DNA of 64,000 nt, from contig MHOA01000008.1 in assembly GCA_001821765.1 (NCBI GenBank), positions 167-64,166 on the forward strand, read 5' to 3'. Positions 3 to 25,018 of this stretch are shown here, in pieces (position 1 is the first letter of the stretch; every line of letters starts with the position of its first letter). Below the pieces are notes generated by a model. That model saw only the letters and a list, made by a program, of their open reading frames with translations. It made no database searches and was not told where the DNA came from. The position numbers and the translations under genes were made by a program. The DNA comes from Candidatus Ryanbacteria bacterium RIFCSPLOWO2_12_FULL_44_26. Its GTDB lineage: Bacteria; Patescibacteriota; Minisyncoccia; Ryanbacterales; HO2-45-13.

Positions 3-3000
3 GTGGGGTCCGCGACTCGCAAACAACTCAACGATCTGATTGCGGATCGTGACAGTCTCTCGCCATCTCCGCAACCGCCGTCACCCACTCCTACTCCCAC
101 TCCACAGCCCACGCCCCCGCTTTCCACTGCTACTCGCATCATACACACATGGACCTTTAGCGATGGCAAGGCCCAGATCTCACATATCTTCAACCGCACC
201 GACCAGGAATATCTGAACTACATTGCAAGTGTTGAGGCGCGGTGTCGCGCGATTCCAATCACTCAATTCCGCTGGAGCGCTCGCGTGGCAGACAGCAATT
301 CCTTAAACTGGCAAAACTACGGCATCCCGGATTGCACGGGCACGCCGCTGTTGCCCACACCACAGCCAACGCCGACCAGCGTCTGCGGCAATGCAATCTG
401 CGAAACGGGAGAAACCCAAAACAGCTGCCCGAGTGATTGTGGCCAAGTCTCAACCTCCACATGGATACTCCACACCTGGACTTTCAGCGATGGAGCAATC
501 GTCCAATCAAAGATTTTCAACCGCACCGACCAGGAATATCTCAACTATGTTGCAAGTATTGAGGCGCAGTGCCGCGCCATCCCACGGTCGCGGTTCGTCT
601 GGAAACCCAATGCCGCTAACAGTGATCCCTCAAACTGGCAAAACTACGGTATCCCAAATTGTTCTTCCTTTCTATCAGCGCCTATCTGCGGCAATGCAAT
701 CTGCGAAACGGGAGAGACCAGCGCCGTCTGCGCGCAGGATTGTCCGCTGACCTGTACGACGACTCCCTCCAAATGCACCACTGCATTCTCCTGCGCTGCT
801 GCCGGTTATGCCTGGTGCAGTAACGCCTGCTATGCCTCCAACGCCTCCTGTCCCGTCCTCTCATGCGGTGATAACATCATCACTGCTCCGGAAGAATGTG
901 AGATCGGCGTGCAGCGTATTGCCCCCACCTGTATCCAAAAGGGGTTTGATAGCGGAGGGCCGATTACCTGCAGCACGAACTGCCGATGGAATACTGACTC
1001 TTGTGTGAACTATGTCTGCGGCAATAACGTCCGGGAAGGAACAGAAGCGTGCGATGGGAATACTGAAATACTCTCCTGCACGACGCTTGATGGGTACAAA
1101 GGCACGAAGACCCGAGCCTGTAATCCGCCTGCCGGCACCAATGCCTGCCAGTGGGGCAGTTTCGGCAACTGCATTCCAAACGAATTCTGCGGCGATGGAA
1201 CAATCCAGACTTCGGCAAGAGAAACGTGCGAGGGCTCCAACCTTGGAGGAAACACTTGTCGTAGTCTTGGGTACGATAAAGGCACGGTGTCGTGTAATAC
1301 AAACTGCACGCTCAATACTGCACAATGCAGCAACATTGATTCTGATGAACCCGTGTTACCCGGTACAGGTTCAGTGGATATAGGAATCGTTTTCCCAGGA
1401 GCCAGCTGGGCAGCGCGTAATCCTGAAGACGTGGGACTTAAACAATCGGGAGTCGACCAATTTGTTTCTGCTGTTAGGAATTTCAGTAGCAATGGCATGG
1501 TTATCAAAGATGGTTATCAGGTCGCTTCTTGGGGAAGCCTGAGCGATAAAAACGACTGGGCATCCGCTGCAAAGCCGGTACATTCCACACTGCTTTTCTT
1601 TGCGGTCAAAGAAGGAAAACTTTCAGGCATTGGCGATCGCATTGCATCTTACGTTAACAAGGTTTTGGGTAAGAGTTTAAGATCGGCTGACCTCCCTATG
1701 ACCTTTCGTCATCTCTCCAACATGACGAGCGGATACACCCTTCCTGAAGGGCCGGGGGAAGCTTGGGCATATAATGACTATGCTATCAAACTTTATGTCC
1801 GCATGCTCTATGATGGCGTTTATGGCACTTCAAATGCCAACCAAGTCGCCATCAATACAAATCGTCTGGGTGCCTTGGGCTTTCAAGATGGTTCGATTTT
1901 TTCCAGCAGGGATGGCTATGGATTGAGCACCTCTGTGAGAGATTTTGCCCGAATTGGATGGCTTTGGGCAAACAAAGGTTATTGGAACGGACGACAACTG
2001 TTCCCCAAAGAATATTTTGACCTGTACGTGAATGTCCAGGTGCCATCCAATCTTCCTAGGACAACAGGAAGCTCTGTGGATGACTACCTAGGTGTTGGCA
2101 CAATAGGAGGAGGCAATGATCTATCAAGTCTGGGACCTGGTGTATATGGAGCTAACTTCTGGTTCAATGCAAATAAAAAATTATTTCCAGACTTACCTGC
2201 TGATACTTATCAAGCCGTTGGTCACTGGGGCACGAAAGTGCTTACTGTATTTCCATCTCAAAGAATGGTTGTTGTTCATTGGCAAAGCGGAACTCGCGAC
2301 CAAAGTGGCTATAATCGGGACTTCAACAGCGTGGCACGATCTCTTATCAATGCCGTAGTTGCTCAACCTGAGCCCACCCCCACCCCAACAAGTAAAGGTA
2401 AAATAATCGTTGATCCCACTAATCCTGAGTGGCTTATCTATGAAAATGGAAAACCTTTCTTTATGTGTGGCCCGGGAGATCCGGAAGACTTTTTATATCG
2501 CGGAACACTCCTGAACGATGGAACCCGAAGTGGTGACCAACTCAATCTTATTAACAAACTTAAAGGAACCGGGGCTAACAGCATTTACCTCCAGGCCATT
2601 CGTTCTCATGGTGGAGATGGTAATAACACACACAATCCGTTTATTAATCATGATCCTACAAAAGGATTAAATGCCAAGGTTTTAGATCAGTGGGAGAGTT
2701 GGTTTAGCGAGATGGACAGAAATTCTATCGTGATCTACTTTTTCTTTTATGATGATAGCGCAAATATTTGGAATACGGGTGATATCGTTGGATCTGCTGA
2801 AAAAGCCTTTATTGAAGGTATTGTTAATCGATTTGAACACCACAAAAATTTGATTTGGGTTGTTGCTGAAGAATATGGAGAAAAGTTCTCGGCTACTCGC
2901 GTATCCAATATTGCACAAGTGATTCGTTCAGCAGACAACAATCAACATGTCATTGGGGTCCATAAAAATGAAAGTATTTCATTTTCAGAATTTGCAAACG

Positions 3001-3557
3001 ATCCAAATATCGGACAGTTTGCTATGCAAATCAATAGTCCTTCAACCCCTACAGAAATGCATGTTGAGGTATTGAAGGCTTGGAATAATGCTTCTGGAAG
3101 ATACAACTTAAACATGTCGGAAGCGGCTAACCAGCCGATTGATTCATCGGCACGAAAAATGAATTGGGCTGCTGCGATGGCAGGTGCTTACGTCACGGCC
3201 CTTGGATGGACAATAGATAACACCCCGAAAGAAACCCTGGTTGACTGTGGCCGACTTGTAAACTTTATGGAGAGCACAACCTTAAACAAAATGTCCCCCA
3301 GAGATGATTTGGCAAGCGCTGGAACCCAATACCTACTGGCAAATCCAGGTCAAAGTTATATTGCCTATTCCGCATCTCTATCTGGAGATATCGGGATCAA
3401 AAACATGAGTGCCGGTACATATTCCTTCAAATGGCTTGACATTCTGACAGGTTATTCTTTAACCCAAACAAGAGTACAAGTCTTGTCAGGAACTCAAAAT
3501 TTTAAATTACCTCCGGGAATCGGCAAAGAGGTCGCTGTTTTTATTCTGAAAGAATGA
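3..3557 (+). CDS. Large modular secreted protein, 5'-truncated by the window edge. It has two copies of a ~105-aa domain, Cys-rich (CGNAICETGET / CGDGT..ETCEG type) repeats, a beta-lactamase-fold serine hydrolase domain and a C-terminal glycoside-hydrolase-like (DUF4038/GH5-like) domain.
   Basis: The ORF is 1184 aa with no start codon in the window. The motif block IIHTWTFSDG...NWQNYGIP(D/N)C occurs twice, at nt ~131-340 and ~463-665. Pro/Thr-rich linkers are present. SAAK (SxxK), FAVKEGKLSGIGD and MTFRHLSNMTSGY match the beta-lactamase/PBP family pattern. The C-terminal region resembles the GKPFF...GDP...G.N.IY family. Family assignments are from memory, not a search. Confidence 0.6.
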   Translation: MGSATRKQLNDLIADRDSLSPSPQPPSPTPTPTPQPTPPLSTATRIIHTWTFSDGKAQISHIFNRTDQEYLNYIASVEARCRAIPITQFRWSARVADSNSLNWQNYGIPDCTGTPLLPTPQPTPTSVCGNAICETGETQNSCPSDCGQVSTSTWILHTWTFSDGAIVQSKIFNRTDQEYLNYVASIEAQCRAIPRSRFVWKPNAANSDPSNWQNYGIPNCSSFLSAPICGNAICETGETSAVCAQDCPLTCTTTPSKCTTAFSCAAAGYAWCSNACYASNASCPVLSCGDNIITAPEECEIGVQRIAPTCIQKGFDSGGPITCSTNCRWNTDSCVNYVCGNNVREGTEACDGNTEILSCTTLDGYKGTKTRACNPPAGTNACQWGSFGNCIPNEFCGDGTIQTSARETCEGSNLGGNTCRSLGYDKGTVSCNTNCTLNTAQCSNIDSDEPVLPGTGSVDIGIVFPGASWAARNPEDVGLKQSGVDQFVSAVRNFSSNGMVIKDGYQVASWGSLSDKNDWASAAKPVHSTLLFFAVKEGKLSGIGDRIASYVNKVLGKSLRSADLPMTFRHLSNMTSGYTLPEGPGEAWAYNDYAIKLYVRMLYDGVYGTSNANQVAINTNRLGALGFQDGSIFSSRDGYGLSTSVRDFARIGWLWANKGYWNGRQLFPKEYFDLYVNVQVPSNLPRTTGSSVDDYLGVGTIGGGNDLSSLGPGVYGANFWFNANKKLFPDLPADTYQAVGHWGTKVLTVFPSQRMVVVHWQSGTRDQSGYNRDFNSVARSLINAVVAQPEPTPTPTSKGKIIVDPTNPEWLIYENGKPFFMCGPGDPEDFLYRGTLLNDGTRSGDQLNLINKLKGTGANSIYLQAIRSHGGDGNNTHNPFINHDPTKGLNAKVLDQWESWFSEMDRNSIVIYFFFYDDSANIWNTGDIVGSAEKAFIEGIVNRFEHHKNLIWVVAEEYGEKFSATRVSNIAQVIRSADNNQHVIGVHKNESISFSEFANDPNIGQFAMQINSPSTPTEMHVEVLKAWNNASGRYNLNMSEAANQPIDSSARKMNWAAAMAGAYVTALGWTIDNTPKETLVDCGRLVNFMESTTLNKMSPRDDLASAGTQYLLANPGQSYIAYSASLSGDIGIKNMSAGTYSFKWLDILTGYSLTQTRVQVLSGTQNFKLPPGIGKEVAVFILKE

Positions 3558-3931: not shown

Positions 3932-4936
3932 ATGACAAAAAAGAACTTATACGTCGTTACAATCCTGATGGCACTTACAATCATGCCGATCTTCTATGCT
4001 CACGGGGAAACCCAAACGCTCACGAATGTCGGCTTTATACAGGGCAACATTTGGTATTCCGAAGAACCTTTTTTTGACGGTGATCATATAAGAATTTATA
4101 CCGTCCTTCATAATAATAGCGGACAGGATATTACCGGAACAATCGTATTCTATGACAATGAGACTCCAATAAACAGCAATAATTTCTCCATCGCGAACGA
4201 GAGAGTTCAAGACCAATGGACTGATTGGCAAGCAGTGTATGGCTCTCATAAAATCTCCGCATCCATTACGAATGCGAAGATGATATTGCCCGGCGGCGAG
4301 GAAGTTACTATTGTTTTACAAAACAGTCAGACCGGAGTCAGCGACCGTTTTGTTGACATTGATACCGATGAAGACGTTATTGGAAATAGCGCGGATGCCG
4401 ATGATGATAACGACGGCATGCCGGATACGAAAGAAGTCAGCATTGGAACAAATCCTCTCAAACAAGACACCGACGAAGATGGGATAAACGATGCCAAAGA
4501 CACAGATCCCCTTATTCCAGAAAAACCAGCCGCTTCCCAAACACCCCAAACAACGGAAACCTCTCCCGAGCAGGCAAACAGCATCCTTCCTTTTGCAACA
4601 CATGCAATAGCATTAATAGCCAACAAGATAGAAACAGCAAGGAAGGCGTTACTTGCGCAGATTGAAAGAAGGATCGAACACTTAAAAGCGGAGATGAAGG
4701 AGCAGAACATAAAAAAAGAATCCGTTCAGCCGACAACGAAAAAGAACGGAGCGGAGGCACGACTAGGGACAAAAGCGATGCTGAAAGATTCCGGTATTTT
4801 CCAATATCTCAATCTCTATATACATTATGCGCTGCTTTTCATTTTAAAATATAAAATACTTTTTTACTTCGTTTTAGCGCTTCTGTTTTACTATCTTACT
4901 CGGTTGTTTTACAGAAAAGTGTTCCGTTCATATTAA
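3932..4936 (+). CDS. Secreted Asp-rich Ca-binding (thrombospondin type-3-like repeat) protein with a C-terminal membrane anchor.
   Basis: N-terminal signal peptide MTKKNLYVVTILMALTIMPIFYAHG. Repeats DIDTDEDVIG, DADDDNDGMPD, DTDEDGINDAKDTD are present. The C-terminal stretch is hydrophobic. Confidence 0.55.
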   Translation: MTKKNLYVVTILMALTIMPIFYAHGETQTLTNVGFIQGNIWYSEEPFFDGDHIRIYTVLHNNSGQDITGTIVFYDNETPINSNNFSIANERVQDQWTDWQAVYGSHKISASITNAKMILPGGEEVTIVLQNSQTGVSDRFVDIDTDEDVIGNSADADDDNDGMPDTKEVSIGTNPLKQDTDEDGINDAKDTDPLIPEKPAASQTPQTTETSPEQANSILPFATHAIALIANKIETARKALLAQIERRIEHLKAEMKEQNIKKESVQPTTKKNGAEARLGTKAMLKDSGIFQYLNLYIHYALLFILKYKILFYFVLALLFYYLTRLFYRKVFRSY

Positions 4937-13400: not shown

Positions 13401-15317
13401 TCACCTTATACGCGCCGTGAGAGAATAAATCTCTCCAAGGATGCGAATACAGTCATCGCTGTTTTGCTTCTCCTCCGCGTCCCGTAATTTTATCTGAAGA
13501 TCGGCCATCTGTGCTCTTATATGCTCCATCTCCCACTCTTTAACGCAAATACGAAGCTCCTCGGCGACATCTTTAATAAACTCGGCTGTTTTCTCAATCT
13601 CAAAAATAAGTTCATGCACAAATATCTTTTCATCATCGTCCAACAGATTTACCACATCAGCATGGTTTTCGGACAGGTTTTCTTGCATCCCAATAAATTG
13701 AAATAACTTTCCTGCCTTTTCGCTTGTGCAGTGTTCTTTTTTGGGAAGTGTCTTTATGGAAGACATGAGATGTGGGTAAAGAAGCAACAACCCTAAGATA
13801 CGCCTCTCGAGCAATACTTTGCGGTTTGAAGTTCCAGCAACTCCTTCAGACCCGGCAAATTCCTGAACTCTTTTTTGCTCTTCATTCATGTCGAGCTTTG
13901 CGTAATAACGAAGCTCCTTCCAACATGCTTCCTCACTTAAAGAAAGCCGGCGGGCAATTGCACCAATCCAATGCGCTCGTTCTATTTCACTGAAAAGCCG
14001 CGCTACAAGCGGCAACACTTCAGCGCCAATTTTTCGTTTGGAAACAGCGTCTTTCAAAGAATATTTTTCAATAGCGCGGGAGAGAAAAAATCCTATACTT
14101 TCAACCGCATTTTTTACTTGTTCCTTCCAGCGCTCGGGAGACGCACATGCTACATCAGCTGGATCGGTACCGCTTTCAAGCTCAATAAGCGCCGTTTGCA
14201 TGTTTTCCCGGACGGCCAGTTCAACAGCCCGCCTTGCCGCCTTCACTCCCGCCTCATCCATGTCAAAAGCAAACAACACCGCATCTGTAAAACGCTTTAT
14301 GAGCCGCAGGTGCTGCGCGGTAAGAGCGGTTCCGGACACCGCAACAACGTTTTTTACCCCTGATTGATATGAAAGCAGAACATCCATATATCCCTCTACT
14401 ATCACAGCTTTCTCCTCTAATCGTATTGCATGGCGCGCCTTATCAAAACCATAAAGAAATCCCGATTTATCATAAAACATCGTGGCAGGCGTATTAATAT
14501 ATTTTCCACCAGAGACAGACTTACCTTTGGTTGGTCCGCCTAAGACGCTTCGGCCGCCAACCGATGGAAACCAGCTTTGAGTTGGCGCTTCACCAGATTC
14601 AAATATCCTGCCGCCGAAACCAATGACGCGATTGCCTGTGTCAATAAGCGGGAATATAATGCGAGAACGAAAGCGGTCGTAATGCCCCGACTCAGACTCA
14701 CCAAAACTCGTCCGCTGACTTGCACCAGCATACCTCTTAGTTACCTCACGTTGCACCACAAGTCCTGCTTTTTTCATTTCCGTCAATGTGTATCCACGCT
14801 CTTTCAAAAAAACAATAAGATTTCTCCATCCATGCGGCGCAAACCCCAGACGAAATAATTTCATCGTCTGGGGCTGAATGCCTCTTTTAATCAAATACTG
14901 CTTTGGCGGCTCCGACGCTTCAAGCGCTCTTTCAAAAAATAATGCTGCGTTATCAAGTAAATCAAGGAGGCGCAAACGTTCGCTTTTTTCTTTTGTGTCT
15001 TGTGTGCCCAGCTGTACTCCGGCACGTTCAGCAAGAATGCGCAGAGCTTCACGAAACTCAATATTCTCAATTTCCATTAAAAATTGAAATATGTCGCCTC
15101 CTTTGCCGCACCCGAAACAGTGCCAGATCTCTCTCGAGGGAGAAACGTTAAACGATGGGGTTTTTTCCGCATGAAACGGACATCGCGCCTTAAAGTTTGA
15201 ACCGCTTTTTTGAAGCCTCACATATCCCTGAATAAAGGAAACGATATCTAAACGGGATTTAATTTCTTCCACTGGTGAACTCATAACATTCTTCTTAACC
15301 TTTATGTTATACATCAA
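13401..15317 (-). CDS. dnaG: DNA primase DnaG.
   Basis: Zinc-finger CPFHAEKTPSFNVSPSREIWHCFGCGKGGD. Toprim motifs EGYMDV and DMDEAG are present. Size is 638 aa. Confidence 0.95.
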   Translation of the reverse strand: MMYNIKVKKNVMSSPVEEIKSRLDIVSFIQGYVRLQKSGSNFKARCPFHAEKTPSFNVSPSREIWHCFGCGKGGDIFQFLMEIENIEFREALRILAERAGVQLGTQDTKEKSERLRLLDLLDNAALFFERALEASEPPKQYLIKRGIQPQTMKLFRLGFAPHGWRNLIVFLKERGYTLTEMKKAGLVVQREVTKRYAGASQRTSFGESESGHYDRFRSRIIFPLIDTGNRVIGFGGRIFESGEAPTQSWFPSVGGRSVLGGPTKGKSVSGGKYINTPATMFYDKSGFLYGFDKARHAIRLEEKAVIVEGYMDVLLSYQSGVKNVVAVSGTALTAQHLRLIKRFTDAVLFAFDMDEAGVKAARRAVELAVRENMQTALIELESGTDPADVACASPERWKEQVKNAVESIGFFLSRAIEKYSLKDAVSKRKIGAEVLPLVARLFSEIERAHWIGAIARRLSLSEEACWKELRYYAKLDMNEEQKRVQEFAGSEGVAGTSNRKVLLERRILGLLLLYPHLMSSIKTLPKKEHCTSEKAGKLFQFIGMQENLSENHADVVNLLDDDEKIFVHELIFEIEKTAEFIKDVAEELRICVKEWEMEHIRAQMADLQIKLRDAEEKQNSDDCIRILGEIYSLTARIR

Positions 15318-15530
15318 TTAAAACGCAGATTCAATGAGGATATTATTATATGACACAGTTTGGGGAATCCCCGCATGTCATATACAGATAACAGGCAAAA
15401 AGGAACGGCCATCGCTTTATAACATAAGCGCCATGAATATATTGTAAACCGGCACTGCACATGTTGATTGCCCTATAAGTAAGTGTATTTTATAATAAAA
15501 ACAGCTCAGCATAACGTATATAAAATTGCA

Positions 15531-16661
15531 ATGACACACCAAAACAACCTACGGACAAGGGATGGGTTTACTCTTATAGAGTTGCTGGTCGCGGTATTTA
15601 TTTTCACCATAGTGATGCTGGTAGCTGTTGGGGCAATCATCGCGGTTAATGACGCCTCGAAAAAGGTGCGATCCCAAAAAACAGTAATAAATAACCTCGA
15701 TTCAGCTTTAGAACAGATGTACAGAAACATCCGTGAAGGATATAACTACCATTGCGGAAATGAATCACTCATTCGTTTCGACAAATCGCAGGGATGTCCA
15801 AGCGGGGAAAGCATATTCGCATTTGAACCAAGAGAAGGAAATCCAAAAAACCGTAACGATCAGGTGGTATATAAACTACAAAATAAAAGAATTATGCAGT
15901 CACTTGACGGTGGTACAAGTTTTTCTCCAATCACCGGCTCCGACGTTATAGTGGAAGAACTCACATTTAAAACTGTGGAAATCTCATCTGCTGGAGATCC
16001 TCAGCCAAGAGTGCTTATTACGCTCAAAGGAAAAGCAGGCACGAGCGGAAAAACGGCATCAGGATTTAACATTCAAACAACAGTATCTCAACGATTAAAA
16101 CCAACACATGCAGAAAGTCTCATTCCGCCCGGCTCACCTTGGCCGCAAAATGCCTATTGCCCGTTTAACGAAACGGTGCCCGGAAGAATCATCGTCAATT
16201 TCAGCGATATAAAAAAAAGCGGCACAACGCTCGGGGCCATCAGCTGTAATAAAGCAACTATAAAACAAGTCATAAACTATGAGCTTCCGATCGCAACACA
16301 AATACCACCCGGGACATATGATATTACGCTTGCAAATTGGGACGATCATTGCGACGCAAATGGGAAGAACTGTGCTTCTCATTATCAACCATATGAAAAA
16401 ATAAAAATTGAGCTCTTGGCCGCTAATGGAACTTCACTATATACATCAGGCATTACAGAAGACGTCAAGGCCGACAAAAATGTTGTTTTTCCTCCTACTG
16501 TTGTTGGAACCAATGTGAAAGTAAGAGCGCTGGTCACAGAAATTAACGCACGGATAGGGGATGTCAGTTGGCCCTACTGTAATAGCGTCGTTGCCGCATG
16601 CGTCGCTTTTGATTTGTCGGGAGCTGAAGGCGGCGAAGAAATAGATATCCATGAGTTCTAG
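15531..16661 (+). CDS. Large type IV pilin-like protein (prepilin-type N-terminal cleavage/methylation domain) with a ~190-aa C-terminal extension domain.
   Basis: G|FTLIELLVAVFIFTIV is a class III signal. The protein is ~377 aa from ATG 15531 (the ORF-track start at 15483 is probably upstream of the true start). Its tandem paralog lies downstream. Confidence 0.75.
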   Translation: MTHQNNLRTRDGFTLIELLVAVFIFTIVMLVAVGAIIAVNDASKKVRSQKTVINNLDSALEQMYRNIREGYNYHCGNESLIRFDKSQGCPSGESIFAFEPREGNPKNRNDQVVYKLQNKRIMQSLDGGTSFSPITGSDVIVEELTFKTVEISSAGDPQPRVLITLKGKAGTSGKTASGFNIQTTVSQRLKPTHAESLIPPGSPWPQNAYCPFNETVPGRIIVNFSDIKKSGTTLGAISCNKATIKQVINYELPIATQIPPGTYDITLANWDDHCDANGKNCASHYQPYEKIKIELLAANGTSLYTSGITEDVKADKNVVFPPTVVGTNVKVRALVTEINARIGDVSWPYCNSVVAACVAFDLSGAEGGEEIDIHEF

Positions 16662-16703
16662 TTACACGAGACGACATTACTTCTAAAGTAATAACTTTTC
16701 ATA

Positions 16704-17858
16704 ATGCCCCGCCTACTCTTTCAAAACAACCGAAGAAAAAAACATATAAACCCTTGCGCCGTTTTCTTCCCTAAAAATGGCTTCGGATTTACTCTCATTG
16801 AAATCTTGGTAGCTGTCTTTATTTTTACCATTGTAATCATGGTCGCTGTTGGGGCAATCATCGCGGTGAATGACGCTTCAAAAAAAGCGCGATCGCAGAA
16901 AGCAGTAATAAATAACCTGGATTCAGCTTTAGAACAGGTGTACAGAAGCATACGAGAAGGACATACCTATCACTGCGGAACTGCTCCCTTTAACACTGAA
17001 CTTGCATGCCCGAACGGGGAAAGCGTCTTTGCATTTGAGGCGAGGGGCGGCGATCTGAACAATCCAAACGACCAGATTGTATATCGGCTCCAAAATAACC
17101 GCATAGAAAGGTCAATTGACGGGGGGAATACCTATCTCCCTCTTACCGCCCCCGATGTCGTGGTAAATGAGCTAACCTTTAAAAATGTTACCATATCATC
17201 TGCAACCGATCCGCAACCAAAAGTGCTCATTACCGTCAAAGGCAAAGCTGGTATTGACCAAAAGTCTGCTTCTGAATTTAACATTCAAACGACCGTTTCC
17301 CAAAGATTACGACCTACAAGCGATATCGGACTATTGCAGCCCGGCTCTTCGTGGCCACAAAACGCATACTGCCCGTTTAACGAGACGCTGCCCGGAAGAA
17401 TTATTGTCAACTTCAGCGACATAAAAATAACCGACACAACACTTGGGTCTACGTGCAATAACCAAGTCGTAAACTATGAGCTTCTTCCGCTCGCAACGCA
17501 AATACCGCCGGGAACATACGATATCATACTGGCAAGCTGGGACGATCATTGCGATGCAGATGGGAATGACTGTCGTGCTCAAGATCAGCTGTATGAAAGA
17601 ATAAAAATTGAGCTCTTGGATGCGGGTGGAACTTCACTATATACATCGGGCATAACGGAAGACATCGAGTTCGACAAAAATGTTGTTTTTCCTCCAACCG
17701 TCGTCGGAACTAATGTGGTGATAAGCGCGTTGGTCACAGAAATTAACGCACGGATAGGGGATGTCAGCTGGCCCGGCTGTAATAGCGTTGTTGCGGCATG
17801 CGTCGCATTTGATTTATTATCATCAGCCGGCGGCGGCGCCGATATATACGAATTTTAA
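16704..17858 (+). CDS. Large type IV pilin-like protein, tandem paralog of the previous gene.
   Basis: GFGFTLIEILVAVFIFTIV. It aligns with the upstream gene over its full length at roughly 75-80% aa identity, with near-identical N-terminal (AVNDASKK.RSQK.VINNLDSALEQ) and C-terminal (VFPPTVVGTNV...ALVTEINARIGDVSWP.CNSVVAACVAFDL) blocks. Confidence 0.75.
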   Translation: MPRLLFQNNRRKKHINPCAVFFPKNGFGFTLIEILVAVFIFTIVIMVAVGAIIAVNDASKKARSQKAVINNLDSALEQVYRSIREGHTYHCGTAPFNTELACPNGESVFAFEARGGDLNNPNDQIVYRLQNNRIERSIDGGNTYLPLTAPDVVVNELTFKNVTISSATDPQPKVLITVKGKAGIDQKSASEFNIQTTVSQRLRPTSDIGLLQPGSSWPQNAYCPFNETLPGRIIVNFSDIKITDTTLGSTCNNQVVNYELLPLATQIPPGTYDIILASWDDHCDADGNDCRAQDQLYERIKIELLDAGGTSLYTSGITEDIEFDKNVVFPPTVVGTNVVISALVTEINARIGDVSWPGCNSVVAACVAFDLLSSAGGGADIYEF

Positions 17859-17878
17859 TTTACACTGGACGTATTTCT

Positions 17879-18415
17879 ATGATAAAAAATACATATACAA
17901 CCATGAAAGGATTCACACTTATTGAAACACTCGCTGCAATAGCGGTTATTCTTATTGTAACAGTCGGCGCTCTTACACTTGCACAGCGGAGTTTGTCTGC
18001 CGCAACCTTTGCAAAAGACCAGACAACCGCTTTCTATCTGGCGCAGGACGCAACGGAATCCATAAAAAACATACGAGATACGAACATACGGGATAATAAT
18101 CCGGGCGGCTGGCTGAACGGTCTTAGCGGAACCTGCACCGGCGGGAATAAATGCACCATCGATACGTCAAAAACCGACACTATATCAAACATTGTTAAAA
18201 CATGCACCGGTTCGTGCGCGCCACTGCGCTATAATCCTACAACAAATCAGTATGGCCATACCTCAAGCTGGCAAGAATCAAAATTTACAAGGGAAGTGGC
18301 AATCAACGTATTAAATCCGGCAAGGGAAATTGCGGTTTCGGTCACCATACGCTGGAAAAGCGGCGTACTGGGAAGGGAATTCACTATAAGACAAAATCTG
18401 TACGACATTTTTTAA
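17879..18415 (+). CDS. Type IV pilin-like / pseudopilin protein. The start is possibly ATG 17903 (MKGFTLIE).
   Basis: KGFTLIETLAAIAVILIV is a prepilin cleavage motif with Glu at +5. Confidence 0.7.
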   Translation: MIKNTYTTMKGFTLIETLAAIAVILIVTVGALTLAQRSLSAATFAKDQTTAFYLAQDATESIKNIRDTNIRDNNPGGWLNGLSGTCTGGNKCTIDTSKTDTISNIVKTCTGSCAPLRYNPTTNQYGHTSSWQESKFTREVAINVLNPAREIAVSVTIRWKSGVLGREFTIRQNLYDIF

Positions 18416-18434
18416 ACAATCATTGCCGTAAAAT

Positions 18435-18899
18435 ATGTTTCTGACAAAAAAACGAAAAAAAAGAAAAGGACAAAAAGCTGGGTTTACGCTTTTATACTCC
18501 CTTATTATTACAAGTATTATACTCGTCATTAATGCCGGAATTTTCAGTATTATTATAAAAGAAACACAATTTGCCGGTCTTGGAAGAGAGTCCCAATTTG
18601 CGTACTACGCAGCTGAATCTGGTGCAGAGTGCGCCTTTTACTGGGATGCCAAACAATCCTCCTTTGACTCACCCCATACCATCACCTGCAATCAAGACAG
18701 CAATAACCCCTCCAATTCCTTTGCGGTCGGCAACTCATCCATAAGCACCTTTACTATTACATTTCTGCCCAAGTCCTACTGCACCGAAGTGAAAGTAAAT
18801 AAATCGAATCCGGTCAAGACAGTCATTGAATCACGCGGATATAATACTTGCGATACGTCAGCAAACAGGATAGAAAGAGGGGTGCGGATAGAATATTAA
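18435..18899 (+). CDS. Pilin-like protein (minor pilin/pseudopilin candidate).
   Basis: Basic leader MFLTKKRKKRKGQKAG|FTLLYSLIITSIILV. Size is 154 aa. Cys residues sit near the C-terminus. Confidence 0.5.
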   Translation: MFLTKKRKKRKGQKAGFTLLYSLIITSIILVINAGIFSIIIKETQFAGLGRESQFAYYAAESGAECAFYWDAKQSSFDSPHTITCNQDSNNPSNSFAVGNSSISTFTITFLPKSYCTEVKVNKSNPVKTVIESRGYNTCDTSANRIERGVRIEY

Positions 18900-22643: not shown

Positions 22644-23927
22644 TTAATGAAGCGTACTATCGAAAAGAATACCATTGGCCCAATAGAATCCGGTTTCGCC
22701 AGACGGCAGTATATCGTGTGTTGCGTCTTTACCGTAAGGAACGCGCTCGGCGCTTACAACAGAAACGCCATCGTACAGGTCGCCGGGCGCAAGATTGCCA
22801 ACAGTGCGTCCATCGATGAGAGGATGTCCGGGAGAAACGAACAACTCCCGGCCATCATCAAGAACCAAGTGAACCATTTGATGATTTAATGCAACCGGCA
22901 CCCTGCTGGTTTTAACGACAATTCCGGCGACACGCTCACCAGACTTGTTGATTGTCCAAACTGATGTTCCTTTCTGTAATTGTTGTACCGGAACCGCACC
23001 AAAAGGTGTATCAATCAATGTATTTAGAGTAAGACATATAGGACAAGGCCGAATATATCCTTTAAGTTGGCAGAAATAAGGGGGAGGGGGCTCGCCTGGA
23101 TACCCAACTGGCGAACCACAACCTTGTACACATTCATAATCTGATGGACAACTTGTATCGCTTGGGCCATTACACTGCCTTCCAACCGGACTAGCACAAA
23201 TATTTTTATGACATAAATTTCCTGCAACACAATCCAAATCTACACTGCACCGATTGCCTTCTTTCAATTTGCACTCTCCTTTTATTACAGTATGAGTGGG
23301 TACGCATGACGGGTCATTCTCTGGGCAAGCGGTTCCAATGCTCTGTGTTTCCTCGCAAATATATTGCTGGGAAGGACAATCAGAATCCTTTTTGCATTCA
23401 GTAACTGGTTGTGGATTTATTGCTGGGCATTTTGCAAATTCACAGTTTTCACCGGTACGGCTCACGTATGATCCATCAGGGCATTGCTTAACTTCTTGGG
23501 TACAGACAAGACCAGTTACTTCCGTCTCTACTTTAAACCCGTGAGATTCCGAAGGAATTTTATTTTTAAGATTCGGCAGATTTCCCAATTCTTTTTCGAG
23601 CATTACTTTAATACAAGGTTCTCCACCACATGCTCCAACTCCAACGCCGACAACGCCCGATTTATCAAGAAACGACTGCGACAAAAGCTCTTTTGCCTGC
23701 TCGATTGTTAATTTTTCAACAAAATGCCTCCCGTCCGGAGTCCAACATTGCCGAGGATAGCTTTCTGCTACAGGATATTCTGCTTTCACACATTCCTCAA
23801 AAGAGTTGATTTCTTTCGCGGGTTTTTGGAAGAAAGTTTGCCGAGTACCAATAAAGTAACCCGCTATGACAGCAAATATCACTATCCCAATAATTATTAT
23901 GATATTTATAAATCCTTTTTGATTCAT
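22644..23927 (-). CDS. Membrane-anchored Cys-rich protein with a C-terminal Hint (Hedgehog/intein-like, BIL-type) domain.
   Basis: N-terminal TM (INIIIIIGIVIFAVIAGYFIG). Multiple C..C..C repeats are present. The C-terminal ~140 aa begins CLTLNTLIDTPFGAVPVQQLQKGTSVWT...VHLVLDDGRELFVSPGHPL and ends ...ANGILFDSTLH, which is the Hint-domain pattern. Confidence 0.6.
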   Translation of the reverse strand: MNQKGFINIIIIIGIVIFAVIAGYFIGTRQTFFQKPAKEINSFEECVKAEYPVAESYPRQCWTPDGRHFVEKLTIEQAKELLSQSFLDKSGVVGVGVGACGGEPCIKVMLEKELGNLPNLKNKIPSESHGFKVETEVTGLVCTQEVKQCPDGSYVSRTGENCEFAKCPAINPQPVTECKKDSDCPSQQYICEETQSIGTACPENDPSCVPTHTVIKGECKLKEGNRCSVDLDCVAGNLCHKNICASPVGRQCNGPSDTSCPSDYECVQGCGSPVGYPGEPPPPYFCQLKGYIRPCPICLTLNTLIDTPFGAVPVQQLQKGTSVWTINKSGERVAGIVVKTSRVPVALNHQMVHLVLDDGRELFVSPGHPLIDGRTVGNLAPGDLYDGVSVVSAERVPYGKDATHDILPSGETGFYWANGILFDSTLH

Positions 23928-24055: not shown

Positions 24056-24855
24056 TTAGGAATTATCCGTGTATTTCTTTCGCAGGAATTCAGTAAAATT
24101 TCTCATTTCCTGTTGTGTGGTTTTCAAAATTTCTGGAATATGATCTCGTTCCTCCTTTGTTAGTTTATCCCGAAATTGATCTTTCCGATTATTCGGAATA
24201 TAAAATTTCCCGCCTCCGTGAACACGAAAACCCCCAACACTTCTATCTGCAATAATACGCATTTCATCTGTCGCATCTCGCCCATGATAAAACTCCTGTA
24301 GTAAAGTCTCCACTTTTACTAGAAGTTTTTCGTTTTCTTCCTCCCATTTTTTGTACTCTGTAGTTTCCTCTTGTTTTATGATCAATCGGGTTGCCTCCTT
24401 CCAGGCCTCATCATTTTCCGCGTGTAATACCTGATCTACGGTTATTCCGTATTTTTTTGCAACCTGTTCGTATATTTCTTCTTCGTGTTCAAAGCGCCAT
24501 TTCGGTTTGTCAGGAGCCTCCACTTCAACCCACGGAACTGGATATCCGTGTTCTGACTCGCTTTCAAAATGACCCTCACAAGAAGCAGAGGTGGGGATTC
24601 CCATAACATTATACATCGCTACGGTTTCCTTAATGCCTTCATCAACCCCCTTACCCAAGCGATCGCGCCAACTATTAACTTCTTTTATCATCGCTTGTAG
24701 TTTATTCAATTTTTCTGATTCTTGTGAGGGAATTTTTTTGTCTGTTTGCTCTGGTTCCTTGTTCTCAAATTGTGGTGGTCCTTCAGGTTTCATAAAATTA
24801 TTCGCCAATACGCCGCGCGCGAGGAGCATTTCGAGACCTACGCCATCGTTCATTT
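24056..24855 (-). CDS. Hypothetical acidic protein, probable start MNDGVGLEMLL...
   Basis: The ORF-track ORF 24056..25012 reads through tRNA-Ser, so I trimmed it to the first ATG downstream of the tRNA. I recognised no domains. Confidence 0.45.
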
Positions 24856-24928
24856 TCTTCTTCTTCTTCTGCCATTTCCTAACTAGCGGTGTGTACTTAA
24901 AAAAATCCGAATTCTGAATTTTAAAAAT

Positions 24929-25018
24929 TGGCGGAGAGGGTGGGATTTGAACCCACGAGAGACTTGCATCTCTGCTCGCTCTCCAAGCGAGTGCCTTAGA
25001 CCACTCAGCCACCTCTCC
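24929..25018 (-). tRNA. tRNA-Ser (anticodon GGA), type II with a long variable arm, CCA encoded.
   Basis: Reverse complement is GGAGAGG-TG-GCTGAGTGGTCTAAGGC-ACTCGC-TTGGAGA-GCGAG-CAGAGATGCAAGTCTCTC-GTGGGTTCAAATCCCAC-CCTCTCC-G-CCA. Confidence 0.85.

What the first reader, a model, noticed from the sequence alone, without database searches (positions are those of the whole stretch)
15483..18899. Four-gene pilin cluster with a tandem pair of unusually large (~380-390 aa) prepilin-like paralogs sharing a conserved ~190-aa C-terminal domain.
All four ORFs start with a class III prepilin signal (G|FTL(I/L)E). Typical major pilins are 130-170 aa. The two tandem paralogs are more than twice that size. 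Their pilin-like N-terminal halves and their Cys-containing C-terminal halves (PWPQNAYCPFNET.PGRIIVNFSDIK...VFPPTVVGTNV...ARIGDVSWP.CNSVVAACVAFDL) are near-identical at both ends at the nucleotide level, while the middle is more diverged. This points to recent duplication with diversification, or to gene conversion of the ends. The C-terminal domain could be a tip adhesin or receptor-binding module. No pilus ATPase or platform gene lies nearby.
Basis: seen in the sequence. Interest (0 to 1): 0.55.

Follow-up and report, generated by a model that had tools for sequence, protein, structure and literature searches.

The report
Pilus-tip gene cluster with modular pilins
This is a four-gene operon for the tip subunits of a type IV pilus in an ultrasmall groundwater bacterium (Candidatus Ryanbacteria), in which two duplicated tip subunits each carry an extra, so far uncatalogued sugar-binding-like domain that probably sticks the pilus to a host cell; it is an interesting but expected variation on a known design.

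Summary
The four + strand ORFs are real. They form a compact operon in a Candidatus Ryanbacteria (CPR/Patescibacteria) genome.

**The small ORFs.** ORF3 is GspI/PilV-like.

**The C-terminal module.** No Pfam or NCBIfam model covers it. It is rare (54 clusters among 1.84 billion representatives). It also occurs, often in tandem, at the N-terminal end of Sec-secreted adhesin-like proteins.

**Context.** A 43%-identical homolog lies directly downstream of pilD in a complete pilB-pilT-pilC operon.

**Divergence.** It is mosaic. Synonymous sites are saturated in the pilin module but not in the C-module (dS about 0.64), and the breakpoint falls at the module boundary. The ends are not "near-identical"; the best 60-nt window is 92%.

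**Verdict.** A new member of the known class of modular minor pilins, probably a tip adhesin. The function is inferred.

The parts
15468..15496 (+). Promoter-like site (TTGCCC-17-TATAAT), upstream of the likely ORF1 start and inside the divergent intergenic region shared with dnaG
   Evidence: Consensus scan, 10/12 matches. The number of sites in the region is not above the shuffled expectation, so this is weak evidence.
15531..16661 (+). ORF1: modular GspJ/PilW-like minor pilin, 376 aa (the mechanical ORF starts at GTG 15483). Leader MTHQNNLRTRDG|FTLIE.
15567..16100 (+). ORF1 pilin module (mature residues 13-190): alpha1 helix plus beta-sheet, with Cys75-Cys89, ending at FNIQTTVSQR
   Evidence: AF2 secondary structure. 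The short homologs P0005 and P0006 (212 and 217 aa) end right after QTTVSQR.
16101..16148 (+). ORF1 inter-module linker (residues 191-206)
   Evidence: pLDDT below 50 for residues 191-206 in the full-length model. This stretch also differs most between the paralogs.
16149..16622 (+). ORF1 C-terminal beta-jelly-roll module (residues about 207-364), with six Cys. Residues invariant across the family are D271, E289, D311 and C357; C210, H273, Q286 and S352 are nearly invariant.
16623..16658 (+). ORF1 C-terminal tail ending in ...EIDIHEF. The motif h-x-h-x-E-F at the very C-terminus is conserved in the pilin-fused family members only.
   Evidence: Alignment A3. pLDDT 28 in the model.
16704..17858 (+). 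ORF2: paralogous modular GspJ/PilW-like minor pilin, 384 aa. It has a long 28-residue leader ending in ...NGFG|FTLIE. The pilin module spans about 16788-17312 and the C-terminal module about 17352-17855.
   Evidence: identical to NCBI OGZ41338.1, 'hypothetical protein', Candidatus Ryanbacteria.
17879..18415 (+). ORF3: GspI/PilV-like minor pilin, 178 aa (KG|FTLIE), four Cys
   Evidence: N_methyl 22.1 bits. Sub-threshold NCBIfam hits to ComGE, PilV and GspI. 35-37% identical to the pilin modules of two LamG-fused pilins in the L001 pilus operon. Occupies the 'I' position of the conserved H-J-I-K array.
18435..18899 (+). ORF4: cap-type minor pilin lacking Glu5 (AG|FTLLYS), 154 aa, with conserved ...ESRGYNTC...ERGVRxxY
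   Evidence: 46% identical to the last gene of the L001 minor-pilin array. 153 relatives found in Patescibacteria genomes; in the 80 loci kept, the relative is, with few exceptions, the last gene of the array after pilD.

Best explanation
The region is a four-gene operon for the tip (priming) complex of a monoderm-type type IV pilus in a CPR bacterium.

- **Subunits.** ORF3 (GspI/PilV-like), ORF4 (GspK/PilX/ComGG-like, no Glu5, the cap) and one of ORF1 or ORF2 (GspJ/PilW-like) would form the I-J-K-type complex. That complex seeds pilus assembly and ends up at the distal tip.
- **Modular J subunits.** ORF1 and ORF2 are modular pilins. A flexible linker joins the J-type pilin module to a ~170-aa disulfide-stapled beta-jelly-roll module, which is thereby displayed at the tip.
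- **Proposed function.** I propose that the module is a ligand-binding (adhesin) domain. The ligand is most likely a glycan or another surface polymer of the host cell on which this episymbiont depends.
- **Two paralogs.** They would give two alternative tips. Their amino-acid differences concentrate in loops flanking a family-invariant polar cluster (D271, H273, Q286, E289, D311). Their C-modules have been homogenised or exchanged more recently than their pilin modules.

**Shown:** gene structure, prepilin signals, folds, modularity, family distribution, synteny in relatives and mosaic synonymous divergence.

**Inferred:** cleavage by PilD, incorporation at the tip, binding function, glycan ligand and alternative use of the two paralogs.
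For: - **Prepilin signals.** ORF1-3 pass the Pfam N_methyl threshold.
- **Synteny.** The short homolog P0006 sits in the J position of pilD-H-J-I-K. That array is conserved in essentially all of 80 Patescibacteria genome loci.
- **Machinery link.** The homolog P0004 (43% identity, same two-module architecture) lies immediately downstream of pilD in an operon with pilB, pilT, pilC and two small pilins. Orthologs of ORF3 (fused to LamG lectin modules) and of ORF4 follow it.
- **Separate, mobile module.** P0005 and P0006 lack it. The same domain occurs in 1-4 tandem copies near the N-terminus of Sec-signal proteins that also carry He_PIG, PKD, DUF11, SpaA and SdrD_B stalk domains, and in one case an LPGTG sortase-type anchor.
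- **Fold.** Beta-jelly-roll closest to CBM36, CBM6, CBM86 and CBM35.
- **Selection.** Both copies are under purifying selection (pN/pS 0.157/0.557).
- **Loop divergence.** Paralog differences fall at 40 of 115 loop positions against 5 of 65 strand positions (p = 3e-5).
- **Published precedents.** Modular pilins with lectin or adhesin modules are described in PMC8179133 and PMC9934059. In the Saccharibacterium TM7x, one minor pilin (PilX1) carries a beta-jelly-roll lectin-like C-domain and another (PilX2, beta-propeller C-domain) is required for host binding (PMC11623550).
Against: - No pilus machinery lies in the 64-kb window. I could not inspect the rest of the genome, so assembly by a T4P machine is assumed from the near-universality of T4P in CPR (PMC6744442).
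- A His conserved in 83% of the family (position 342) is Ile in ORF1 and ORF2.
- The GspH-like gene that precedes J in the canonical array is absent here.
- NCBIfam GspJ and GspI models hit only through the N-terminal helix and score far below their cut-offs.
- No multimer model or experiment shows an I-J-K complex.
Confidence: 0.65

Rival explanations
1. The C-terminal module is an enzyme rather than a passive binding domain. It could be a metal-dependent glycan- or cell-wall-cleaving activity carried on the pilus tip to breach or remodel the host envelope.
Against: The best and most compact structural matches are non-catalytic CBMs. In secreted relatives the domain occurs in 2-4 tandem copies at the distal end of stalk domains, which is typical of binding repeats. 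ORF1 and ORF2 have lost the conserved His342.
Confidence: 0.12
2. The cluster serves a competence (DNA-uptake) pilus, and the C-terminal module captures DNA, as ComZ or ComP-type minor pilins do.
For: CPR bacteria are thought to rely on T4P-linked competence (PMC6744442). The best NCBIfam hits to the N-terminal helices are Com pilus minor pilins such as ComGE, at 2e-7 but below the cut-off.
Against: The C-modules are acidic (pI 4.86 and 4.05; K+R 13 and 7 against D+E 20 and 23), which is unfavourable for DNA binding. The fold resembles CBMs, not known DNA-binding pilin modules. In TM7x, the pilin mutants tested kept wild-type competence (PMC11623550).
Confidence: 0.08
3. An orphaned or accessory pilin cluster that is not assembled: either a decaying remnant detached from its machinery, or pseudopilins of a secretion-type system.
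For: It is detached from pilB, pilT, pilC and pilD and sits between dnaG and a 6-phosphogluconolactonase gene. This differs from all 80 reference loci and from L001. The H-like gene is missing. A read-derived variant of ORF1 has a 48-aa deletion in the pilin module.
Against: All four reading frames are intact. The paralogs are under purifying selection. The locus is identical across at least four assemblies and many samples. The cysteine pattern and prepilin signals are conserved. The L001 ortholog set also lacks H, yet sits in a complete pilus operon.
Confidence: 0.08
4. A plain tandem duplication with uniform divergence. On this view the apparent mosaic only reflects stronger protein constraint at the ends, with no gene conversion or module exchange.
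For: Amino-acid identity also peaks in alpha1 and in the C-module. That alone would raise nucleotide identity there.
Against: Synonymous sites differ as well. Fourfold third positions at conserved residues are 30% identical in the pilin globular part and 67% in the C-module (Fisher p = 4e-4). pS is 0.73 against 0.43, and the max-chi-square breakpoint is at residue 210 (p = 0.015).
Confidence: 0.07

Closest known systems
Modular type IV minor pilins (Streptococcus sanguinis PilB with a vWA module and PilC with a concanavalin-A-like lectin module; concept of Raynaud et al. 2021, PMC8179133, and Shahin et al. 2023, PMC9934059)
   Different: The module here is a different domain that is not yet catalogued (no Pfam or NCBIfam model). 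The carrier is a GspJ-like pilin module. There are two tandem paralogs. The organism is a CPR bacterium. No binding data exist.
GspJ / XcpW / EpsJ (T2SS) and PilW (T4aP) minor pilins of the GspI-J-K tip complex
   Different: Sequence models are not met (TIGR01711 scores 22.5 bits against a cut-off of 64.85, through alpha1 only). Known GspJ proteins are 150-200 aa and have no C-terminal module. No GspH-like gene is present in this cluster.
Nanosynbacter lyticus TM7x (Saccharibacteria) PilX1 and PilX2 minor pilins (PMC11623550)
   Same: They are Patescibacteria T4P minor pilins with extra C-terminal domains. [quoted passage not shown] PilX2 is required for host binding. Glycan binding is proposed.
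   Different: PilX1 and PilX2 are reported to lack a predicted PilD signal, so they are X/K-type or PilY1-like carriers. ORF1 and ORF2 have canonical G|FTLIE signals on a J-type module. Homology between the PilX1 jelly-roll and this module was not tested because the sequence is not held here.
CBM36 / CBM6 / CBM35 / CBM86 carbohydrate-binding modules (galactose-binding-domain-like beta-jelly-roll)
CofB / TcpB (T4bP) and ComZ large minor pilins
   Same: They are tip-located minor pilins in which beta-rich C-terminal domains extend from the pilin module and mediate receptor, secreted-protein or DNA binding.
   Different: They belong to a different pilus class and different folds (H-type lectin or beta-repeat in CofB, beta-solenoid in ComZ). 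CofB works as a homotrimer rather than in an I-J-K-type heterocomplex. This comparison rests on my knowledge and on the discussion in PMC8179133, not on a test here.

Membership tests
Type IV pilins (class III signal peptide; Pfam PF07963 N_methyl / TIGR02532) | Short hydrophilic leader ending in Gly, followed by a hydrophobic stretch of about 20 residues with Glu at +5 | tested here: met
   ORF1, ORF2 and ORF3 score 31.9, 26.1 and 22.1 bits against a gathering score of 21.2, with G|FTLIE visible in the sequence. ORF4 does NOT meet this feature: G|FTLLYS with Tyr at +5 and no N_methyl hit.
Type IV pilins | Lollipop fold: a long N-terminal alpha1 helix packed on an antiparallel beta-sheet | tested here: met
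   The AF2 model of ORF1 has helix 15-69 followed by strands 71-185, with pLDDT 70-92 over the module. ORF3 and ORF4 were not modelled.
Type IV pilins | Cleavage and N-methylation by a PilD-type prepilin peptidase, and polymerisation by a PilB/PilC machine | not testable with these tools
   No pilB, pilC or pilD in the window. The homolog P0004 lies next to pilD in L001.
GspJ / PilW-type minor pilins | GspJ-like fold of the globular domain | tested here: met
GspJ / PilW-type minor pilins | Match to the curated sequence model (TIGR01711 gspJ; PRK10557/PpdB) | tested here: not met
   22.5 and 21.4 bits against a cut-off of 64.85, and 17.9 bits against 120. Only residues 28-85 align. The relative P0017 has a weak precomputed PF27121 PpdB hit.
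GspJ / PilW-type minor pilins | Encoded together with I-type and K-type (Glu5-less) minor pilins | tested here: met
   ORF3 and ORF4 follow directly. The module-less homolog P0006 occupies the J slot of pilD-H-J-I-K. The array is conserved in 80 loci.
Modular pilins (sensu Raynaud et al. 2021, PMC8179133) | A pilin module plus an additional module that is not specific to pilus biology, i.e. is also found in non-pilin proteins | tested here: met
   The C-domain profile finds 54 cluster representatives. About 17 are pilin fusions. The rest are Sec-signal multidomain surface proteins with 1-4 copies.
Modular pilins | Modules joined by a short linker and folding independently | tested here: met
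   Residues 191-206 have pLDDT below 50 between two confident domains. The module alone folds with pTM 0.81. P0005 and P0006 end at the boundary. This is prediction only.
Modular pilins | The extra module has a direct role in a pilus function (adhesion or binding) | not testable with these tools
   Needs binding assays or genetics.
Carbohydrate-binding modules CBM6/35/36 (galactose-binding-domain-like) | Sequence-family membership | tested here: not met
Carbohydrate-binding modules CBM6/35/36 | Beta-jelly-roll fold | tested here: inconclusive
Carbohydrate-binding modules CBM6/35/36 | Binds carbohydrate (often through Ca2+) | not testable with these tools
   Conserved D, H, Q, E and D residues exist, but their spatial clustering and function were not examined.
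GspK / PilX / ComGG cap pilins (ORF4) | Prepilin-like N-terminus lacking Glu5; last gene of the minor-pilin array | tested here: met
   AG|FTLLYS. Orthologs in L001 (RG|FTLLYS) and L005 (RG|FALLMA) also lack Glu5 and close the array. ORF4 relatives are, with few exceptions, the last gene of the array in the 80 genome loci.
GspK / PilX / ComGG cap pilins (ORF4) | GspK-type fold with an inserted alpha-domain, or a match to PilX_N or ComGG models | tested here: not met
   No Pfam or NCBIfam family hit and no PDB sequence hit. At 154 aa it is too small for the GspK alpha-domain.

The most novel reading that the evidence does not exclude
The uncatalogued jelly-roll module may be the host-recognition determinant of this episymbiont's pilus tip. 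In this reading the two tandem J-type carriers form a small specificity cassette system. Module-level gene conversion between the copies, together with loop diversification around an invariant D/H/Q/E/D site, would let the lineage shift or broaden host range. A stronger version is that the site is catalytic, making this a pilus-tip enzyme acting on the host envelope.
Probability: 0.12. Interest if true: 0.65.

Novelty: new member of a known kind. Interest (0 to 1): 0.3.

Why it matters
How CPR/Patescibacteria recognise and attach to their hosts is largely unknown. Type IV pili are the leading candidate, and in the one genetically tractable case (TM7x) a minor pilin with an extra C-terminal domain is needed for host binding.

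This locus adds three things:
- a clean example of a GspJ-type tip pilin carrying a previously uncatalogued, rare surface-protein domain;
- a defined domain family, with about 54 clusters and conserved residues suitable for mutagenesis;
- a paralog pair whose module boundary coincides with a recombination breakpoint.

It is useful for annotating CPR pilins and as a candidate for binding studies. It does not change the current picture of how modular pilins work.

Tried and rejected
1. **Word-indexed homolog searches with the C-module.** They returned almost nothing and even missed ORF1 and ORF2 themselves, so I did not use them as evidence of rarity. The exhaustive HMMER scan is the basis instead.
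2. **The search for related loci in genome contigs.** The scans with the pilin-fusion alignments either failed for lack of a conserved stretch or found no relative. This also shows that the window's own genome is not in that collection. I switched to the ORF4 family as an anchor.
4. **AlphaFold-database fold search.** The afdb50 library was unavailable.
5. **PDB sequence searches for ORF1, ORF3 and ORF4.** They hit nothing beyond the N-terminal helix.
6. **Look-up of the contig for the deletion variant P0001.** It failed.
7. **GspK/PilX-type domain for the C-terminal half.** Considered and rejected: the fold is a beta-jelly-roll and the carrier is J-like.
8. **Major pilin role.** Rejected on size, fold and synteny.
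9. **DNA-binding module.** Rejected because the module is acidic.


Full report
**Observation**

The window carries four consecutive + strand ORFs at 15483-16661, 16704-17858, 17879-18415 and 18435-18899. They are separated by 42, 20 and 19 nt. Upstream lie the divergently transcribed dnaG (13401-15317) and an rpoD-like sigma factor gene. Downstream is a convergent 6-phosphogluconolactonase gene.

ORF2 is identical to NCBI OGZ41338.1, a 'hypothetical protein' of a Candidatus Ryanbacteria MAG from the Rifle aquifer, i.e. a CPR/Patescibacteria genome. The locus is identical in several assemblies.

ORF1, ORF2 and ORF3 carry G|FTLIE and pass the Pfam N_methyl threshold. ORF4 reads AG|FTLLYS, with Tyr instead of Glu at +5, and has no N_methyl hit. 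The statement that all four share G|FTL(I/L)E is therefore wrong in a biologically meaningful way.

The ORF1 start is more likely ATG 15531 (leader MTHQNNLRTRDG). A promoter-like site lies inside the GTG extension, and public gene calls give 376 aa.

**Paralogy and the 'mosaic'**

ORF1 and ORF2 are 73% identical in nucleotides. In 60-nt windows, identity is:
- 87-88% over the alpha1 helix;
- 53-73% in the pilin globular region;
- 78-92% over the 3' part.

The longest identical run is 37 nt. 'Near-identical' is therefore overstated, but the heterogeneity is real and extends to synonymous sites:
- pS is 0.73 (saturated) for residues 66-190 and 0.43 (dS about 0.64) for residues 206-376.
- Fourfold third positions at conserved residues are identical at 11/37 sites against 42/63 (Fisher p = 4e-4).
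- A maximum chi-square scan puts the breakpoint at residue 210, exactly where the C-terminal module begins (permutation p = 0.015).

Overall pN/pS is 0.157/0.557, so both copies are under purifying selection. The nearest other homologs are at most 43% identical, so the pair is lineage-specific. I read this as an old duplication whose C-module (and part of alpha1) was later homogenised by gene conversion or exchanged as a module. It is not a recent event.

**Architecture of the large proteins**

Homologs P0005 and P0006 (212 and 217 aa) are the N-terminal half alone and end just after FNIQTTVSQR. This defines the module boundary independently of the divergence analysis.

The AF2 model of ORF1 (20-sequence alignment, pLDDT 75) shows four parts:
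- an alpha1 helix (15-69) and a beta-sheet, forming the pilin module;
- a disordered linker (191-206);
- a beta-sandwich;
- a disordered 12-residue tail.

**The module as a family**

No Pfam-A or NCBIfam model covers the module, either here or in eight other members.

An exhaustive HMMER scan of 1.84 billion cluster representatives finds only 54 at E ≤ 1e-3:
- About 17 are pilin fusions of 345-481 aa with G(F/Y/I)(T/S)L(I/V)E N-termini.
- The others are Sec-signal proteins of up to 1491 aa with 1-4 tandem copies, mostly near the N-terminus. These copies are followed by He_PIG, PKD, DUF11, SpaA-like or SdrD-B stalk domains, and in P0007 by an LPGTG-type anchor.

That is the usual position of the ligand-binding part of stalked adhesins.

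Across 42 aligned copies, G261, D271, E289, D311 and C357 are invariant. C210, Y263, H273, Q286 and S352 are nearly invariant. A His present in 83% of copies is Ile in ORF1 and ORF2.

The module is acidic (pI 4.86 and 4.05).

Between ORF1 and ORF2, amino-acid differences lie at 40 of 115 predicted non-strand positions but only 5 of 65 strand positions (p = 3e-5). The hotspots at 228-247 and 276-290 flank the conserved polar residues.

**Context in relatives**

P0004 (43% identical, same two modules) lies on a 26.5-kb metagenome contig directly downstream of pilD. The operon there also contains PilO-like, PilB (MshEN+T2SSE), a response regulator, PilT, PilC and two small pilins. Downstream of P0004 come:
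- an ORF3-like pilin fused to a LamG lectin module;
- a second J+C-module pilin (P0058);
- an ORF3-like pilin with two LamG modules;
- an ORF4 ortholog that also lacks Glu5 (46% identity).

The module-less P0006 sits in pilT-pilC-pilin-pilin-pilD-H-J-I-K-ligA. Using the ORF4 family as an anchor, 153 relatives were found in GTDB species genomes, all from Patescibacteria. In the 80 loci kept, the order pilB-pilT-pilC-major pilin(s)-pilD-H-J-I-K-ligA-gatA is almost invariant. None of the 80 (861 kb, six frames) contains the C-module.

Compared with that norm, the window's cluster differs in three ways:
- It is detached from the machinery; none is found in the window's scanned ORFs.
- It lacks the H-like gene.
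- It has a duplicated, module-bearing J gene.

**Mechanism proposed**

ORF3 (I-like), ORF4 (K-like cap without Glu5) and ORF1 or ORF2 (J-like) form the tip or priming complex of a monoderm-type T4P. The jelly-roll on J is displayed distally through the flexible linker and binds a ligand on the host or substrate surface, most plausibly a glycan. The two paralogs provide alternative specificities.

The genes, signals, folds, modularity, family distribution, synteny and divergence pattern are shown. Processing, tip location, binding and ligand class are inferred from:
- the GspIJK paradigm;
- the modular-pilin literature (PMC8179133, PMC9934059);
- the TM7x study, in which minor pilins with lectin-like C-domains exist and one of them is required for host binding (PMC11623550).

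CPR genomes nearly universally encode T4P (PMC6744442), which is why I assume a machine exists elsewhere in this genome. I could not check that.

**Rivals**

- A catalytic module is possible, given the conserved D/H/Q/E/D/S residues and PNGase F among the hits. It is disfavoured by the tandem repetition in adhesin-like proteins and by the CBM-like matches.
- A DNA-capture role is disfavoured by the acidity of the module.
- An unassembled remnant is disfavoured by intact frames and purifying selection. The L001 cluster is also H-less, yet sits inside a full pilus operon.
- Uniform duplication is rejected by the synonymous-site tests.

**Comparison and novelty**

By definition this is a modular type IV minor pilin, a class already shown to be widespread and diverse, including in CPR (PMC8179133). 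A beta-jelly-roll example already exists in Saccharibacteria (PMC11623550).

Four things are new here:
- the specific module, an uncatalogued and rare domain family;
- its attachment to a GspJ-type carrier;
- the tandem paralog pair, with a recombination breakpoint at the module boundary;
- the detachment of the cluster from the otherwise rigid pil operon.

I rate it a new member of a known kind, of moderate-to-low interest overall. It is a reasonable target for binding studies on CPR host recognition.

Noticed in passing
window 16623-16658 and 17820-17855 (last ~12 codons of ORF1 and ORF2); alignment A3: 17 of the 18 pilin-fused members of the C-module family aligned here end, at the very C-terminus, in a conserved tail h-x-h-x-E-(F/Y/I). 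Examples are DIHEF, DIYEF, EVFEY, NVEEF and IDIDEI. The Sec-secreted members lack it. AF2 gives it pLDDT of about 28. It may be a docking strand for a partner minor pilin.
   Followed up: partly
protein P0001 (read set SRR3989344), corresponding to window about 15822-15965: A variant of ORF1 with an in-frame 48-aa deletion inside the pilin module (IFAFE...TFKTVE becomes IFTFETVE) plus a P-to-L change in the WPQNAY motif. It could be a population variant or an assembly artefact. Its contig could not be retrieved.
   Followed up: partly
loci L010-L089 (80 Patescibacteria genome contigs): Near-invariant synteny: pilB-pilT-pilC-major pilin(s)-pilD-H-J-I-K, followed by a ~670-aa ligA-like gene and a ~475-aa gatA-like gene. 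The window's cluster breaks this arrangement. Some loci have oversized H (L038 507 aa, L059 466, L087 407), I (L059 336, L038 325) or K (L062 451, L088 402) pilins, presumably other modular minor pilins. In L088 pilD follows K.
   Followed up: partly
L001 11083-12303 and 13838-15802: In the related pilus operon, the ORF3-like (I-type) pilins are themselves fused to one or two Laminin_G_3 (concanavalin-A-like lectin) modules. That tip would carry both LamG modules and the jelly-roll module. The first of these pilins has a degenerate signal (SG|SSLIE).
   Followed up: partly
window 16704-16787: ORF2 has an unusually long 28-residue leader (MPRLLFQNNRRKKHINPCAVFFPKNGFG|F) with no alternative in-frame ATG, GTG or TTG. 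Relative to ORF1 it contains an insertion of about 13-16 residues just before the cleavage Gly, including a duplicated GF-GF.
   Followed up: no
window 3-3557 (+): A large ORF of at least 1184 aa runs in from the left edge, with weak Apiosidase-like and beta-lactamase family hits. The first kilobase has GC 0.56 against about 0.44 for the rest of the window.
   Followed up: no
window 22644-23927 (-) and 3932-4936 (+): A 427-aa protein with a C-terminal Hint (intein/hedgehog-like) domain, and a 334-aa protein with a bacterial TSP3 (calcium-binding) repeat. Both are otherwise unannotated and may be surface or secreted proteins.
   Followed up: no
window 24929-25018 (-): tRNA-Ser (GGA) overlaps the 5' end of the mechanical ORF 24056-25012 (-), which has no Pfam hit. 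The real start of that ORF, if it is a gene, must lie further downstream.
   Followed up: no
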